Below are positions 39,272-45,045 of a stretch of DNA of 64,000 nt, in pieces. The position numbers were made by a program, and so were the translations under genes. The first letter of the stretch is position 1. Each line of letters begins with the position of its first letter. This DNA is from the human T2T-CHM13v2.0 reference genome, Homo sapiens. The notes below the pieces were generated by a model. The model was not told the DNA's origin. It saw only the letters and a list, made by a program, of their open reading frames with translations, and did not search any database. The stretch lies in assembly GCF_009914755.1 (NCBI RefSeq), contig NC_060947.1. One strand, 5' to 3'.

Positions 39272-39363
39272 GCATTTATGGGTGGGAAGCTGGTCAGAAG
39301 GAAAACATCCTGCTGTCTTTTTAGGAAATCACGTTGGACATGGTCGTATAGCTCTTTCCAAAG
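39272..39363 (+). pseudogene. CHPT1 (cholinephosphotransferase)-like exon remnant, CDP-alcohol phosphotransferase motif region
   Basis: MGGKLVRRKTSCCL-(frameshift)-LGNHVGHGRIALSK vs recalled CHPT1 [28 protein letters not shown]; donor GT lost. Confidence 0.72.
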
Positions 39364-39628
39364 AGAAATTCGTTTTTTCCATAATAGATTAAAAACCGAA
39401 ATAAACCATGTCTTGTCAGTGGTCACTTTTTGGATCAGTGTACATCATTGCACTGAGCAATTTTGCACAGTGTGTTTCAAAATTACATTCAAGAACTGAT
39501 TTGCTTACTGGCACCTTATTTTGATGCCATGACATTTCCATTAAAATCTCTATGTCAAATCAGTCTATGATAACTCTTTTGGCATTCAAAAAAATTATCC
39601 ATGGCTCTTAAACCATGTTTCTTTCATC

Positions 39629-39756
39629 ATTTTACGGCCGTTGGAGCTTCAACTACTATTTGCTTGGGAACCCATCTTAACTAGCTCTTGCATTCGGGCT
39701 TCCTGTTTTATTGTGATGATTGGCAGACCCATTTCAGGCATGTTCAGCTTTGGAAA
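39629..39756 (+). pseudogene. CHPT1-like next exon remnant
   Basis: FTAVGASTTICLGTHLN*...FLFYCDDWQTH-(frameshift)-SGMFSFGK vs CHPT1 FMAVGASIAARLGTYPDW...[20 protein letters not shown]; TAG at 39682-39684; both splice sites lost. Confidence 0.85.
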
Positions 39757-40679
39757 GGAATTACGATTTTGAACTTATACAAGCAAAAAATGTAACTGAG
39801 TTTATTTTCACAAACTGCTTTAATTTGTTAACAACAAGTCACTAAAACCAGAAATCAATCGTTTAAATTACCTTTTAATTTGTTGGAGCTTTCGTAAATG
39901 CTATGCTTTCATTTAAGTCTTTATTTATTCTACATGTTATATACATAGTTAAATTAGTTGATCAGAGTTTAAATATTTTCTCTCCTTCTCCAAGGACCCA
40001 CAAGCTCAGGCTTAAAATAAAGAGTGGAATGAGAAAAGTAAAGGCCCGAAATATTATACCACCAAAGCTGTAGAGGACCTTTATAATAAAATAATGGATG
40101 TCAAAGCTTTCTGACCTTTTTAGGCAAATCTTCCTGTGTCCCTAAAGAAAAAACCCCCTTGCCAACAGCCACCAACAACAGGTAATCATGTGACTCTCAG
40201 CTGTGGTAGACAATTGCTGAAAAAATATGAAAACACCTTGGGCATATTAAGGAGCTAAGCATGAGATGATATATACATATGTGCATGTCTTTCTCATTAG
40301 ACCCCTGGAAATAAAACATATTGCAGGAAGGCTCATGTCCATGTCTCTTGACCATGTAGCTTCCTCTGCTCCCAACTCTGAAGAACATTCTGGCCTTTGT
40401 TCATTCCCAGCTTGAGTATCTCATGCCTAAAAATGTTTTAGCCCCACATCAGTGCTGCATAGAACAGGGACTTGCTCTCAAAACAAGTCTGAAATTGATA
40501 AATGACAGGAGAAGCTCAATGTGATGGCTAGGTACCAGATAGAAGGCCTTCCACTGTTTTGAACACTGATTGTAAGCTCTAGAATAACTGTAGCTGCAGT
40601 CTACTGGGCAAGGGCATGTGTCAGGCAGGGTGTGAAATGCTCTGCATGCATGACCTCATTTCTCCCCCACATTACCCCT

Positions 40680-41550
40680 GTGGAATAGTCAGGACTCTTA
40701 AGAGACACCATCAACAGGATATAGACAAAGATACATAGACAGATCAGAGGGGATTGATTCGGGGAGTTGGAGGGTGAAACGTCTAAGGTCAGGCTGTCTG
40801 CAAGCTGGAGACCCTGGGAGGCCAGGAATGTGACTCAGTCCACATCCAAAAGCCTCAGTACCAGAGAAGCCAATGCTATAACTCTCAATATAAGGCCAAA
40901 GGCCTGAGAACCTGGGCAGGCCAGGGAATGGGCGTGTAAGTCCCGGAGTCTGAAGGCCAAAGAGCCAAGAGTTCTGGTGTCCAATGGCCAGATAATAAGA
41001 GTCCCAGCGGCCAGGCGCAGTGGCTCACGCCTGTAATCCCAGCACTTTGGGAGGCCAAGGCAGGCGGATCACGAGGTCAGGAGTTTGAGACCAGCCTGGC
41101 CAATATGGTGAAACCCCATCTCTACTAAAAATACAAAAGTTAGCTGGCTTGGTGGCATGCGCCTGTAGTCCCAGCTCTTCGGGAGGCTGAGACAGGAGAA
41201 TGGCTTGAACCCAGGAGGCAGAGATTGCAGTGAGCCGAAATGGTCCCACTGCACTCCAGCCTGGGTGACAGAGCAAGACTCCATCTGAAAAGAAAGAGAA
41301 GAATCTCAGCTTCAGCAGAGAAAGGGAGCAAAGTGCATTTCATCTGCCTTGCCTTCTTTCTTCTATCAAGGTCCTGAACGAATTGGATGTGGCCCGCCCA
41401 GATTGAAGGTAACTTCCTCACTCTGCCCACCAACTCACCCCAATCTTATCTGGAATGCCTACAGAAGCTCACCCTGAAATACTGCTTTACCAGTTCTCTA
41501 TGTATTCCTGAACGCAGTCACATTTTGGTTACCTAAAATTAACCATCACG
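40680..41550 (-). mobile_element. MLT2-type LTR interrupted by an AluS (41009-41295, +)
   Basis: Ends cctaaaattaaccatcac; Alu consensus inside. Confidence 0.7.
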
Positions 41551-42371: not shown

Positions 42372-42680
42372 GCCGGGCGTGGTGGCTCATGCCTGTAACC
42401 CCAGCACTTTGGGAGGTCGAGGCGGGCGGATCACAAGGTCAGGAGATCAAGACCATCCTGGCTAATACGATGAAACCCCATCTCTACTAAAAATACAAAA
42501 AAATTAGCCAGGTGTGGTGGCACACGCCAGTAATCCCAGCTACTCGGGAGGCTGAGGCAGGAGAATGGCGTGAACCTGGGAGGCGGAGTTTGTAGTGAGC
42601 CGAGATCGCGCCACTGCACTCCAGCCTGGGCGACAAAGCGAGACTGTCTCAAAATAATAATAATAATAATAAATAATAAT
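42372..42680 (+). mobile_element. AluY
   Basis: gagatcaagaccatcctggctaa / gaatggcgtgaacc diagnostics; (TAA)n tail. Confidence 0.92.
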
Positions 42681-42907
42681 GACTGTCATGACTGAGCAAC
42701 TCACAGGACGAATCCATACAATGGTGCTGGAAGATAGATGGGCCCATCTTATTTCATCCTTATTTTAGAAAAGATGACACTGAGGACCAGCAAGGTTAAT
42801 AACCTGTTCGAGATAACCCAGCAGTTGTACCGAGCTTGTCTGACTCCAGAGCCCACACATTCCCTCATACACCATGCGGCCAGACAAGGCCAGTGAAGTA
42901 CTAACAG

Positions 42908-43366
42908 GTTTTCTTTTCTTTTTCCTTTCTTTTCTTTCTTTCCTTTATTTTCTTACTTTCCTTTCTTTCGTTTCTTTCCTTTCTTTTTCTTTCTCTTTCT
43001 TTCTTTCTTTTTTCTTTCTTTCTTTCTTTCCTCCCTCCCTCCTTTCCTTCCTTCCTTCCTTCCTTCCTTTCTTTTTTCTTTCTTTCAACAGAGTTTCACT
43101 CTTGTTGCCCAGGCTGGAGTGCAATGGCAGGATCTCGGCTCACCGAAACCTCTGCCTCCTGGGTTCAAGCGGTTCCCCTGCCTCAGACTCCCAAGTAGCT
43201 GGGATTACAGGCGTGCACCACCAGGCCTGGCTAATTTTGTATTTTTAGTAGAGATGGGGTTTCTCCATCTTGGCCAGACTGGTCTCGAACTCCCCACCTC
43301 AGGTGATCCACCCGCCTCAGCCTCCCAAACTGCTGGGATTACAGGTGTGAGCCACCACGCTTGGCC
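42908..43366 (-). mobile_element. AluS with long (CTTT/CCTT)n tail
   Basis: Alu consensus match; TSD-like actaacag..ttt on both sides. Confidence 0.9.
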
Positions 43367-44726
43367 ACTAACAGTTTTTCTAAGGTGTTGAATAGATGGA
43401 ATAAGGGAATTAGCAGTATTATTTAAATTTAAGGTGTTGAATAGATGAAATAAGGGAATTAGGAGTATTATTTAAATTGTGGTAAAAACACAGTGCGTGA
43501 CATATATACTCTTAACAAATGTTTAGGCATATAACACAGTATAATGAAGTATATGCCCATTGTTTGACAGTGGATCCTTAGAACTTTCTCATCTTCTATG
43601 ACTACAACTCTATGCCGATTGCAATCCAATTCCCCGTTTTCCCCTCCTCCTAGCCCCTGGCAATCACCATGCTACTTTCTGCTTCTGTGAGTTTCACTAT
43701 TGTAGATATCTCATAAAAGTGGAATCTGAAGCATTTGTCCTTCTGGAAATTGCTTGTTTAACTTAAGCATAATGTTCTCAGGTCCGTCGATGTGGCTGGA
43801 GTAGTTTCTGACAATTCTACACAGTGGGGGGATCTTGAAACTTGTCAAACATGCACCAAACTGGAAAGACTACTATAGCGATCACTACATTTTCATCACA
43901 CAGCTCCAATCACTACAAGACAGCTAATTCCGTTTCGTACATCTCCCTCTCCAAAGCTGCACAAATACAGAAGAAAGTTCCCCTCTCCTTCAAAAGGAAA
44001 TATTGATGATTTTGAATGGCATGAAGCCAATTTCTGTAATGCAGCAAAAGAATACATTTAACTGACTTATTCTAACCAAATTTGAAACAATTTCATTTGT
44101 TAGATCAAATGTTTCCAAAGGAAGATTTCAAGTGTTATTATATTTTTTAAGTGCATTAAAATAACATATAGGCATTAATTGTTCTCATATTCAAATAAAT
44201 ATACAAATGACTTTGCATATACTAACTGAATATTGCACTTGAAAAAAATTCTGTAGATAATTTATCTCTACAGAAAGCCTTGAAACATGTAAACCATAAA
44301 TAATTATGCATACTTGTATATTTAGGAAACACTTCTAGTCAGTGCTAAAGACAAGCATCATTTAATAGTGGACCAAATCAATTAAATGACATTTTGATGT
44401 GTTTGTGAAAATGCCATATTCATGAATCCATGACTCACAATGTATACTTACATGTCTTGTTCAATGGTCTTAATGGTTTTTAGCAGTTTAATTTATTCTG
44501 GGGTACAAACTTATGTTGCTTTTAAGTTTTCATATTTCCTCTCAAATTTTATTTCATGAAAATTGGTTTCATAATTTAGTAAGGATACACAAAAATAAGT
44601 TCATAAAATAGATTTTGTCTTATGTTTTTTCTCCTTAGGAATAACAATGTAAGCTTAAATACTTGTGATTTCTACCATTTGAGACTGATATAGATCCACT
44701 GAGGCCAAATGTAAAATCAGATCATC

Positions 44727-45045
44727 TTTATTGCTAAAAGTTCATTGACAATGTTTGGGAGACTAGGTGACCATTATTAGGGAAAGGACTGAAAGCCCGC
44801 TACATACAACTTTGGATTGGCTACTACTGCTCACATAACTGTTTAGGATTTACATGGGTTTTAGCAGAAAAGGGATCCACCATGAAAACAAACAGTATGC
44901 AACAATTTAAACTAGGAATTTCAGGCCACATCGGTTTCATGGAGCTAATTTTATGGCTGTATGCTATCACCTAGGTTTAGCTTTGTTCTTTGAAGTGTCA
45001 TCAGAATAACTGCGATAGGAGAACACCAGACACCTCTTGCAGATG
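44727..45045 (-). pseudogene. SYCP3/XLR-like terminal exon with stop (45003-45001) and polyA signal
   Basis: taacag|CAT CTG CAA GAG GTG...CAG TTA TTC TGA; AATAAA on minus strand at 44727-44732. Confidence 0.8.
44975..45019 (+). pseudogene. CHPT1-like terminal exon overlapping the SYCP3-like stop codon in antisense
   Basis: cctag|V*LCSLKCHQNNCDR vs recalled CHPT1 C-terminus VQVLSSKSHQNNMD*. Confidence 0.7.

What the first reader, a model, noticed from the sequence alone, without database searches (positions are those of the whole stretch)
39272..45045. CHPT1 exon fossils tail-to-tail with the SYCP3-like gene: the whole autosomal CHPT1-SYCP3 locus was copied to X
Seen: two plus-strand segments ~265 nt apart translate (with a stop and frameshifts) to consecutive CHPT1 exons: GKLVRR..LG..HG..LS and FTAVGAS..LGT..FYC..WQT..SGMF.FGK. 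A third segment, KCHQNNCD, overlaps the SYCP3-like stop in antisense. Recalled: on human chr12, CHPT1 and SYCP3 converge and their last exons overlap. Inference: the X-linked XLR-type gene arose by DNA-level duplication of a >14 kb block, not by retroposition. The CHPT1 passenger died early (all splice sites lost), while the SYCP3 copy kept its splice sites longer. CHPT1 remnants would therefore mark the founder site of the XLR/FAM9 family.
Basis: partly seen in the sequence, partly recalled or inferred. Interest (0 to 1): 0.9.

Follow-up and report, generated by a model that had tools for sequence, protein, structure and literature searches.

The report
CHPT1 fossils beside SYCP3-like pseudogene
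Dead fragments of the lipid-synthesis gene CHPT1 lie next to a dead SYCP3-like gene on human Xq28, showing that the X-linked SYCP3-like (XLR/FAM9) genes began as a DNA copy of a roughly 31 kb piece of chromosome 12, although this locus is pieced together from two copies of different age.

Summary
Window 39277-39363, 39628-39756 and 44975-45016 (+) are fossils of CHPT1 exon 2 (3' half), exon 3 and exon 9. They sit in a colinear chain of exon, intron and flank homology: window 38933-53033 against chr12:101667960-101698657 (CHPT1 intron 1 through SYCP3 and its upstream region). CEPT1 gives no alignment. Retroposition is excluded.

- CHPT1 exon 1 is not in the copy, and exons 4-8 are missing from the window.
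- The remnants do not mark a founder site. The same exon 2-3 fossil, with the same breakpoints and lesions, lies beside a FAM9-type gene at X:8.58 Mb and downstream of all six VCX/VCY genes. A neighbouring Xq28 copy keeps the exon 4 to exon 9 relics.
- The window block is composite. Left of about 43960 it is K2P 0.21 from the Xp22.3 copies. The SYCP3-like part to the right is 0.44-0.55 from every other X copy, as far as from SYCP3 itself.

Shared X-only flanks at both ends of the chr12-derived block favour one ancient transfer followed by duplications within the X. My literature searches found no paper linking CHPT1 to these genes. The relics are non-functional. Their value is as an evolutionary marker.

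The parts
36177..37445 (+). VCX-like gene relic (promoter block, two exon equivalents, small intron). It is the left part of the younger ('F-lineage') segment.
   Evidence: Local blastn to the VCX gene X:7396393-7397867: 66% over 1006 nt, E 2e-109, plus a second piece at 71%. None of the 11 window ORFs tested hit Pfam VCX_VCY.
38933..39265 (+). Relic of CHPT1 intron 1. Its left end is the left edge of the chr12-derived block.
   Evidence: Aligns to chr12:101667960-101668282 (67%, E 9e-34). The same chr12 start base is found in the FAM9-type flank and the VCX unit. It is not a high-copy repeat: 8 of 8 genome hits are the X/Y paralogs.
39277..39363 (+). Fossil of CHPT1 exon 2, 3' half (CDP-alcohol phosphotransferase motif region). 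It has a 1-nt insertion and has lost its donor.
   Evidence: chr12 exon 2 is 101675317-101675464. The 5' half and 7.1 kb of intron 1 are absent in all X/Y copies.
39364..39627 (+). Relic of CHPT1 intron 2 (264 nt; 266 nt on chr12).
   Evidence: It lies inside the continuous alignment of window 39277-40673 to chr12:101675379-101676783.
39628..39756 (+). Fossil of CHPT1 exon 3. Acceptor AG is now AT, TGG is now TAG, there is a 12-nt deletion (all three shared with the Xp22.3 copies shown), and the donor is lost.
   Evidence: PDB: the only hit is CHPT1 residues 142-181. tblastn E 0.001. Multiple alignment.
39757..40673 (+). Relic of CHPT1 intron 3, 5' part.
   Evidence: The alignment to chr12 runs up to 101676783.
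40674..43959 (+). Sequence found only in the X copies, with three Alu-type masked stretches. It is shared with the VCX unit and partly with the FAM9-type flank. Its right end is the end of the younger segment.
   Evidence: Window 41291-43959 aligns to X:7402563-7404924 at 76-81%. No chr12 match was found.
43963..44974 (+). Relic of CHPT1 intron 8. Its left end is the start of the deep ('W-lineage') segment.
   Evidence: Window 44291-45210 aligns to chr12:101689477-101690393. Window 43963-44752 aligns to the neighbouring copy X:151458508-151459311 at only 67%.
44975..45016 (+). Fossil of the coding part of CHPT1 exon 9 (contains KCHQNNCD). Its second codon is TAG and the original stop is lost. 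Acceptor AG is kept.
44998..45048 (-). Relic of the last coding exon of the SYCP3-like gene, with a double stop at 44998-45003 overlapping the CHPT1 exon 9 fossil in antisense.
45180..45490 (.). Alu insertion that splits the SYCP3-like exon matching Cor1 positions 103-132.
   Evidence: Masked stretch in the hub table. The chr12 alignment is interrupted at 45210/45485. The exon alignment ends at the Alu.
45486..45557 (-). SYCP3-like exon relic (Cor1 104-126). Acceptor kept and frame open up to the Alu. There is one in-frame stop beyond the Alu.
   Evidence: Pfam Cor1 E 6.4e-4, 20.5 bits. Alignments.
48072..48173 (-). SYCP3-like exon relic (Cor1 72-102). Acceptor and donor kept, frame open.
   Evidence: Pfam Cor1 E 0.0061, 17.3 bits. 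Alignment.
50979..51098 (-). SYCP3-like exon relic (equivalent of the Cor1 1-49 exon). Acceptor and donor kept, frame open.
   Evidence: tblastx and alignment to chr12:101696156-101696284. No Pfam hit.
51757..53033 (+). Homologue of the SYCP3 5' and upstream region. Its right end is the right edge of the chr12-derived block.
   Evidence: Aligns to chr12:101697433-101698657.
53034..54746 (+). X-only flank shared with the FAM9-type locus, with no chr12 counterpart found.
   Evidence: Window 52382-54746 aligns to X:8598897-8601491 at 64-68%. No chr12 hit was found up to 101710000.

Best explanation
The three segments are non-functional fossils of CHPT1 exons 2, 3 and 9.

Origin. They were carried to the X as passengers when a block of about 31 kb (present-day length) was copied as DNA into the X in an early mammalian ancestor. 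The block ran from CHPT1 intron 1, through the CHPT1 3' end and the convergent SYCP3 gene, to about 2 kb upstream of SYCP3. The SYCP3 part stayed a working gene for a long time and founded the XLR/FAM9 family. The promoterless CHPT1 part decayed at once.

Later spread. Duplications within the X carried pieces of the block, together with X-specific flanks, to other places:
- other Xq28 sites;
- Xp22.3, as a FAM9-type gene;
- together with a VCX-like gene, into every VCX/VCY repeat unit.

This window. The block seen here is not one pristine copy. A younger piece (VCX-like relic plus CHPT1 intron 1 to intron 3) is fused near 43960 to an old, deeply diverged piece (CHPT1 intron 8, exon 9 and the SYCP3-like gene). 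The most likely cause is a deletion spanning two adjacent paralogous units. That SYCP3-like gene was later killed by an Alu insertion, an exon loss and a stop codon.

Status of each step.
- Shown: the homology, the boundaries, the lesions and the distances.
- Inferred: the direction of transfer, the single transfer, the deletion model and the dates.
For: (a) Repeat-filtered blastn gives 12 colinear, same-strand alignments from window 38933 to 53033 against chr12:101667960-101698657. They include introns and upstream sequence. The whole-genome search independently hit chr12:101675575-101675932 (E 7.6e-25).

(b) The exon map of CHPT1 on chr12, from tblastn of P0026, places the fossils in exons 2, 3 and 9. 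PDB and tblastn support exon 3.

(c) The source is not CEPT1. Best CEPT1-locus E is 0.11 against 3e-138 for CHPT1. The AVGAS motif of CHPT1 is kept, not the VLGTC of CEPT1.

(d) Breakpoints are shared. The window, the FAM9-type flank and a VCX unit all start at chr12:101667960 and all jump from 101668282/8 to 101675372/9. The lost exon 2 donor and the lost exon 3 acceptor are in all five X/Y copies aligned beside the window. The TAG stop and the whole 12-nt deletion are seen in four of them; in VCY_14.89 a larger gap covers that stretch.

(e) Other copies hold other CHPT1 parts.
- X:151453130-151465669 holds the end of intron 3, an exon 4 fossil, pieces of introns 4-8, exon 9 and an SYCP3-like gene.
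- The FAM9-type locus holds pieces of introns 4 and 8.

(f) The block is composite. K2P between the window and the X:8.58 Mb locus is 0.212 over 1365 sites in the CHPT1 exon 2 to intron 3 block. It is 0.45-0.51 over 857-1397 sites in three SYCP3 intron blocks. Distances to chr12 are alike in both parts, 0.42-0.48. In the tree, the window plus a chr18 offshoot, chr12, and the FAM9/Xq28 clade are three deep lineages, each with 100% support. Homology to the VCX unit ends at 43959 and homology to the neighbouring copy starts at 43963.

(g) X-only flanks are shared between the deep lineages at the right edge: window 53033-54746 against X:8599424-8601491. At the left edge they are shared among the younger copies.

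(h) The SYCP3-like relic keeps 6 of 6 checked splice dinucleotides. It has weak Cor1 matches at the expected profile positions.
Against: - No outgroup is available, so the three-way split (chr12, window lineage, FAM9 lineage) is unrooted. A single transfer rests on the shared right flank only, and chr12 could simply have lost that flank.
- At 35% raw difference the alignments are uncertain, so the K2P values are rough.
- Pfam finds no CDP-OH_P_transf domain in the fossils.
- The whole-genome Cor1 scan listed no hit inside the window among its 16 matches.
- The exon 2 fossil is not significant as protein on its own.
- The deletion model for the junction is one of several possible rearrangement histories. 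Window 55819-58000 repeats window 37-2800 at 80-83%. This shows further local duplication that I could not order.
- The names FAM9A, FAM9B and FAM9C for X:8.36, 8.59 and 12.62 Mb come from recalled map positions, not from a call.
Confidence: 0.85

Rival explanations
1. The window holds the single original (founder) copy of the chr12 CHPT1-SYCP3 locus. It has merely lost exons 4-8 by an internal deletion, and the CHPT1 remnants mark it as the site from which all XLR/FAM9 genes spread.
For: - The window is the only locus examined that has a VCX-like relic, CHPT1 5' fossils, a CHPT1 exon 9 fossil and an SYCP3-like gene in colinear order.
- Both deep SYCP3-like lineages lie within about 85 kb at Xq28.
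- A review states that this region is homologous to the mouse Xlr3/4 cluster (PMC4091450, passage read).
Against: - The exon 2-3 fossil occurs at 7 other X/Y loci with identical breakpoints.
- The left and right parts of the window block differ about two-fold in distance to the same paralogous locus (0.21 against 0.45-0.51). Their distances to chr12 are equal.
- The neighbouring copy keeps the exon 4 and intron 4-8 relics that the window lacks.
Confidence: 0.1
2. There were two independent DNA-level transfers from chr12 to the X. One founded the window's SYCP3-like lineage and the other founded the FAM9/Xq28 lineage. Each carried the CHPT1 3' end.
For: The three lineages are about equidistant. 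K2P is 0.42-0.46 between the window and chr12, 0.40-0.53 between the FAM9 clade and chr12, and 0.44-0.55 between the window and the FAM9 clade. The tree is a trichotomy without a root.
Against: - The right edges of chr12 homology nearly coincide (101698657 against 101698527).
- Beyond that edge the window and the X:8.6 Mb locus stay homologous for about 1.7 kb, with no chr12 counterpart found.
- Two transfers of the same block to the same chromosome are less parsimonious.
Confidence: 0.1
3. The similarity is chance, or it comes from CEPT1, or from a retroposed CHPT1 mRNA.
For: The protein-level scores are weak: PDB E 0.57, and no Pfam domain in any of the 10 ORFs tested.
Against: - DNA alignment to the CHPT1 locus has E 3e-138 and includes intron 2 at nearly the same length (264 against 266 nt) and parts of introns 1, 3 and 8.
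- The CEPT1 locus gives nothing below E 0.11.
Confidence: 0.01

Closest known systems
Non-processed (duplicated) pseudogene fragments carried as passengers in a segmental duplication
   Same: Exons in parental order and orientation, intron and flank homology retained, no promoter or first exon, and many disabling lesions.
   Different: The passenger is very old (K2P about 0.45 to the parent). It has been re-duplicated to at least nine further X/Y sites. The copy in this window is spliced together from two paralogous copies.
XLR / FAM9 / SLX superfamily of X-linked SYCP3-derived genes (Cor1 domain)
   Same: The minus-strand neighbour is colinear with the SYCP3 exons and introns. It gives weak Cor1 matches at the right profile positions. 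The literature I read already names SYCP3 as the source gene and places the origin at the base of Eutheria (bioRxiv 10.1101/2021.03.30.437712, passages read).
   Different: The window's copy is a pseudogene of a lineage as far from the FAM9-type copies as from SYCP3. No named relative could be retrieved. The Xq28 Xlr3-like pseudogene mentioned in print is said to be closest to FAM9B (PMC4091450). That fits the neighbouring copy X:151453130-151465669, not this one.
VCX/VCY repeat units of Xp22.3 and Yq
   Same: Window 36042-43959 is colinear with a VCX unit, X:7395940-7404924. The match includes the VCX gene region and the CHPT1 exon 2-3 fossil.
   Different: The window's VCX-like part has no VCX_VCY Pfam match and no ATG at the VCX start position. 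Identity is 66% in the gene part and about 80% in the flank.

Membership tests
Non-processed pseudogene of CHPT1 | Similarity to parental coding exons, in parental order and on one strand | tested here: met
   Exons 2, 3 and 9. Exons 1 and 4-8 were not found in the window.
Non-processed pseudogene of CHPT1 | Homology extends into the parental introns and flanks | tested here: met
   Relics of introns 1, 2, 3 and 8 align to chr12.
Non-processed pseudogene of CHPT1 | Closer to CHPT1 than to the paralogue CEPT1 | tested here: met
   E 3e-138 against best E 0.11. The genome search hit chr12 only.
Non-processed pseudogene of CHPT1 | Disabling lesions | tested here: met
   A frameshift, two in-frame stops, 12-nt and 2-nt deletions, 3 of 4 splice dinucleotides lost, and the natural stop lost.
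CDP-alcohol phosphatidyltransferase (Pfam PF01066) | Profile match over the curated cut-off | tested here: not met
   No family was found for any of the 10 ORFs tested. The genome scan lists 6 matches and none is on the X. The fossil is too decayed to be filed as a domain.
Processed (retroposed) pseudogene | Exons joined without introns | tested here: not met
   Intron 2 is kept at 264 nt, and other introns are kept in part.
Cor1/Xlr/Xmr family (Pfam PF04803), for the minus-strand neighbour | Profile match over the curated cut-off of 32.1 bits | tested here: not met
   Two of 3 relic exons give 17.3 and 20.5 bits at profile positions 72-102 and 104-126. There is no window hit among the 16 matches of the genome scan. 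The relationship rests on DNA colinearity with SYCP3.
Cor1/Xlr/Xmr family, for the minus-strand neighbour | Intact reading frame | tested here: not met
   An Alu sits in one exon, one in-frame stop lies beyond it, and the Cor1 36-68 exon was not found.
VCX/VCY family (Pfam PF15231), for window 36177-37445 | Profile match | tested here: not met
   No VCX_VCY hit in any of the 11 window ORFs tested. DNA homology to the VCX gene has E 2e-109.

The most novel reading that the evidence does not exclude
The CHPT1 fossil is a physical tag that ties three X/Y gene families into one history. In this reading, one chr12 block landed at Xq28. A VCX-like gene already lay next to that block, or soon came to. 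The unit [VCX-like gene, CHPT1 5' relic, (CHPT1 3' relic, SYCP3-like gene)] was then copied to Xp22.3. There its SYCP3-like end became the FAM9 genes. Its truncated left end [VCX, CHPT1 exons 2-3] became the VCX/VCY amplicon. VCX/VCY would then descend from an older Xq27-q28 VCX-like family rather than being new in simian primates. Xq28, which is syntenic with the mouse Xlr3/4/5 cluster, would be the ancestral home of the whole XLR superfamily.
Probability: 0.4. Interest if true: 0.65.

Novelty: new member of a known kind. Interest (0 to 1): 0.5.

Why it matters
Known already:
- The XLR/FAM9/SLX genes are known to derive from SYCP3.
- Because they contain introns, a DNA-level origin is already implicit.

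What the CHPT1 passenger adds:
- It gives the extent of the original duplication, chr12:101667960-101698657.
- It fixes the direction of transfer: the X copies lack the CHPT1 promoter and share lesions.
- It provides neutral sequence with diagnostic breakpoints. These can be searched for in any mammal to date and trace the family.
- It links each VCX/VCY repeat unit to the same duplicon as a FAM9-type gene.

It also shows that this Xq28 interval holds three old SYCP3-like relics of two deep lineages. That bears on how the mouse Xlr3/4/5 cluster relates to the human genome.

The relics have no likely present function.

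Tried and rejected
- Pfam on 10 ORFs of the fossil region on both strands gave nothing.
- PDB search with the antisense ORF gave no match. The search with the exon 2 ORF gave only one unrelated weak hit (E 0.33). My first suspicion, that the plus-strand 'exons' were antisense SYCP3-like exons, was therefore dropped once one search hit the CHPT1 locus.
- tblastx of CHPT1 against the CEPT1 locus, meant to define the exons, found only exons 2 and 3 within the 20 kb I could fetch. 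The exon map came from tblastn of P0026 instead.
- I tested whether the VCX gene derives from CHPT1 exon 1 or its promoter. There was no alignment below E 0.5 between window 34000-38900 and chr12:101655001-101668500. For the VCX unit, besides Alu-type repeat hits, only one 134-nt hit (E 6e-9) lay upstream of exon 1. The idea was rejected.
- tblastn for CHPT1 exons 4-8 in the window, the FAM9-type locus and the VCX unit found none. The only trace was an exon 4 fossil in the neighbouring Xq28 copy at E 0.14, which lies inside a DNA alignment of E 1e-76.
- To name the window's SYCP3-like lineage I searched the protein database with its best exon. One candidate shared words and none scored. Orthology to mouse Xlr3, Xlr4 or Xlr5 is therefore open.
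- To name the Xq28 VCX-like paralogue, the search returned only two unnamed metagenome-derived read-throughs.
Three of the four Xq27-q28 VCX-like paralogues and the rest of CEPT1 were not examined.
- Literature. Four full-text searches found no paper linking CHPT1 with FAM9, Xlr, VCX or SYCP3 duplication, and none with 'CHPT1 pseudogene' or 'CHPT1P'. The original FAM9, VCX and Xlr3 papers are in subscription journals, are not in the library and were not seen.

Full report
WHAT WAS CHECKED. The window is T2T-CHM13 chrX:151466001-151530000, which is contig C23 of the searchable genome G000. I read 39000-45300 and listed all stop-to-stop frames.

- A whole-genome DNA search with window 39200-39850 gave 9 matches from 9 candidates. 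These were the window itself, seven X/Y paralogues (73-78% identity) and chr12:101675575-101675932 (68%, E 7.6e-25).
- I fetched chr12:101630001-101710000 and ran a repeat-filtered local blastn. It gave a same-strand colinear chain:
  - 38933-39265 to 101667960-8282
  - 39277-40673 to 101675379-6783
  - 44291-45210 to 101689477-101690393
  - 45485-46395, 46703-47185, 47302-48596, 48683-48924, 50287-50680, 50895-51271 and 51390-51564
  - 51757-53033 to 101697433-8657
- A gorilla CHPT1 of 406 aa (P0026) maps by tblastn to eight exons on chr12. The ninth was located by its C-terminal motif. The window fossils are:
  - exon 2, 3' half: 39277-39363
  - exon 3: 39628-39756
  - exon 9: 44975-45016
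- The spacer between the first two fossils is 264 nt. Intron 2 on chr12 is 266 nt.
- As protein, exon 3 read through its TAG has CHPT1 (9uet_A, residues 142-181, E 0.57) as its only PDB match. It is also the only one of 13 tblastn alignments below E 0.01 (E 0.001).
- Against 20 kb of the CEPT1 locus holding the equivalent exons, the best DNA alignment has E 0.11, against 3e-138 for CHPT1.
- On chr12 the last CHPT1 codons (KSHQNNMD-stop) overlap the two SYCP3 stop codons in antisense. The window keeps this arrangement, with the double stop at 44998-45003.

STATE OF THE FOSSILS.
- Lesions seen in the window:
  - a 1-nt insertion in exon 2, found in the window only
  - loss of the exon 2 donor
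  - exon 3 acceptor changed from AG to AT
  - TGG changed to TAG, and a 12-nt deletion
  - a further 2-nt deletion
  - loss of the exon 3 donor
- The lost exon 2 donor and exon 3 acceptor are shared with all five Xp22.3/Y copies shown. The TAG and the 12-nt deletion are shared with four of them, because VCY_14.89 has a larger gap across that stretch.
- In exon 9 the second codon is TAG and the natural stop is lost. Its acceptor AG remains.
- Three of 4 CHPT1 splice dinucleotides are therefore lost.
- No Pfam domain is detectable.
- Exons 4-8 are absent from the window. Exon 1 and the promoter have no counterpart.

THE SYCP3-LIKE NEIGHBOUR (minus strand).
- tblastx and pairwise alignments find four relic exons:
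  - 50979-51098
  - 48072-48173
  - 45486-45557, cut by the Alu at 45180-45490, with one in-frame stop beyond the Alu
  - 44998-45048
- The exon matching Cor1 positions 36-68 was not found.
- Six of the 6 splice dinucleotides I checked are kept, and the exon frames are otherwise open.
- Two of 3 exons give weak Cor1 matches at profile positions 72-102 and 104-126: 17.3 and 20.5 bits, below the cut-off of 32.1.

THE REMNANTS ARE NOT UNIQUE TO THIS SITE.
- The seven paralogues of the exon 2-3 fossil lie at X:6.08, 7.40, 7.72, 8.04 and 8.58 Mb and at Y:14.89 and 14.97 Mb.
- A Pfam VCX_VCY scan of the genome places the four VCX and two VCY genes 2.1-13 kb upstream of six of them, on the same strand.
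- The seventh lies about 17 kb from a Cor1 exon at X:8594884. By recalled map position this is FAM9B.
- The window, this FAM9-type flank and a VCX unit all begin their chr12 homology at 101667960. All jump from 101668282/8 to 101675372/9. The truncation and the 7.1 kb gap therefore predate their separation.
- The neighbouring Xq28 copy X:151453130-151465669 (plus orientation, ending just left of the window) holds the following:
  - the end of CHPT1 intron 3
  - an exon 4 fossil (E 0.14, inside a DNA alignment of E 1e-76)
  - pieces of introns 4, 5, 7 and 8
  - exon 9 and an SYCP3-like gene
- A third, inverted copy at X:151436987-151429994 starts at exon 9.
- Taken together, the copies reconstruct an ancestral X insert running from CHPT1 intron 1 to about 2 kb upstream of SYCP3.

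THE WINDOW BLOCK IS COMPOSITE.
- In the CHPT1 exon 2 to intron 3 block (1.4 kb), K2P values are as follows:
  - window against the Xp22.3/Y copies: 0.21-0.235
  - those copies among themselves: 0.05-0.097
  - all X/Y copies against chr12: 0.44-0.48
  - In the tree the window is sister to a 100%-supported Xp22.3+Y clade.
- In three SYCP3-intron blocks the values are:
  - window against the X:8.6 Mb locus and against both neighbouring Xq28 copies: 0.44-0.55
  - window against chr12: 0.42-0.46
  - the X:8.6 Mb locus against the plus-strand Xq28 neighbour: 0.14-0.16
  - either of those two against the inverted neighbour: 0.20-0.235
- With three more FAM9-type loci and a chr18 fragment added, the tree has three deep lineages, each with 100% support:
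  - window + chr18
  - chr12
  - a clade of all other X copies
- Distances to chr12 are alike in both parts, so rate differences do not explain the two-fold contrast.
- The switch is sharp. Homology at 76-81% to the VCX unit ends at 43959. Homology at 67% to the neighbouring copy starts at 43963.
- In chr12 terms the junction joins intron 3 (near 1016775xx) to intron 8 (near 101689188).
- To the right, the deep segment ends between 54746 and 55613. After that, window 55819-58000 repeats window 37-2800 at 80-83%.
- My inference: two adjacent paralogous units were fused by a deletion. This removed the younger unit's CHPT1 exons 4-9 and its SYCP3-like gene, plus the 5' part of the older unit's CHPT1 relic. 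Other rearrangement orders are possible.

ONE TRANSFER OR TWO.
- The right edge of chr12 homology is nearly the same in the window (101698657) and in the X:8.6 Mb locus (101698527).
- Beyond that edge the two stay homologous for about 1.7 kb (64-68%), with no chr12 counterpart found up to 101710000.
- This favours one insertion followed very early by a duplication within the X.
- Without an outgroup it is not proven.

DATES (inference from recalled neutral divergences, not from a call).
- K about 0.45 is at or beyond the eutherian radiation. This agrees with the statement that Xlr genes emerged at the base of Eutheria (bioRxiv 10.1101/2021.03.30.437712, passages read).
- K about 0.21 suggests early primate or earlier.
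- K of 0.05-0.10 fits the catarrhine-age spread of VCX/VCY.

WHAT IS KNOWN.
- SYCP3 as the source gene of the Xlr superfamily is in print (passages; PMC7743899, passages).
- A review says the human Xq28 region homologous to the mouse Xlr3/4 cluster contains an Xlr3-like pseudogene closest to FAM9B (PMC4091450, passage). That description fits the plus-strand neighbour, not the window's copy.
- Four full-text searches found no paper connecting CHPT1 with these families, and none mentioning a CHPT1 pseudogene.
- The primary FAM9, VCX and Xlr3 papers are outside the library and were not seen.

VERDICT. The DNA-level, block-wise origin with CHPT1 as a dead passenger is well supported. The 'whole locus' and 'founder-site marker' claims are not supported. 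The window's block is a fusion of two copies of different age. This is a new, well-documented instance of a known kind of feature, a passenger pseudogene in an old segmental duplication. It is useful as an evolutionary tag and has no likely present function.

Noticed in passing
window 36177-37445 (+); L045 = X:150392951-150394400: A VCX-like gene relic lies 1.5 kb upstream of the CHPT1 fossils. The CCAAT/TATA promoter block and the small intron are the best-kept parts, and there is no ATG at the VCX start position. Closer paralogues (75-83%) lie at X:150392992, 149782982, 149765799 and 147321811. The one I fetched has an ORF with a weak VCX_VCY match (E 0.0012, 20 bits, below the cut-off of 27). 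VCX/VCY may therefore descend from an older Xq27-q28 family.
   Followed up: partly
X:151453130-151465669 (+) and X:151436987-151429994 (-), i.e. 0.3-36 kb left of the window: Two further unannotated SYCP3-like relic blocks lie here. The first carries an exon 4 fossil and CHPT1 relics from intron 3 to exon 9, and is K2P 0.14-0.16 from the FAM9-type locus at X:8.6 Mb. It is probably the Xlr3-like Xq28 pseudogene mentioned in print.
   Followed up: partly
window 37-2800 and 55819-58000: A direct repeat of at least 2.1 kb at 80-83% identity. It flanks the neighbouring SYCP3-like copy on one side and the window's copy on the other, which points to a local duplication of K about 0.2.
   Followed up: no
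chr18:11762297-11763164; chr9:106603334-106604330 and chr9:109125181-109126118: Autosomal fragments related to the window's SYCP3-like lineage. The chr18 piece is 76-79% identical to window 47416-48300, closer than any X copy.
   Followed up: partly
chr1:19121015-19121330 and chr8:43394852-43395151: Cor1 matches that span many profile positions in one stretch, with stops. They look like processed SYCP3 pseudogenes, in contrast with the intron-bearing X copies.
   Followed up: no
window 37610-38140: A high-copy interspersed repeat (hundreds of genome hits at 80-85%) is inserted between the VCX-like relic and the CHPT1 intron 1 relic.
   Followed up: no
chr8:94354447-94354764: A VCX_VCY Pfam match (94 bits, one TAG) on an autosome. 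It may be a VCX-derived pseudogene.
   Followed up: no
X:10806969-10807694 (-): A further FAM9-type SYCP3-like fragment lies between the loci I take to be FAM9B and FAM9C. It groups with the X:12.62 Mb copy at weak support of 51%.
   Followed up: partly
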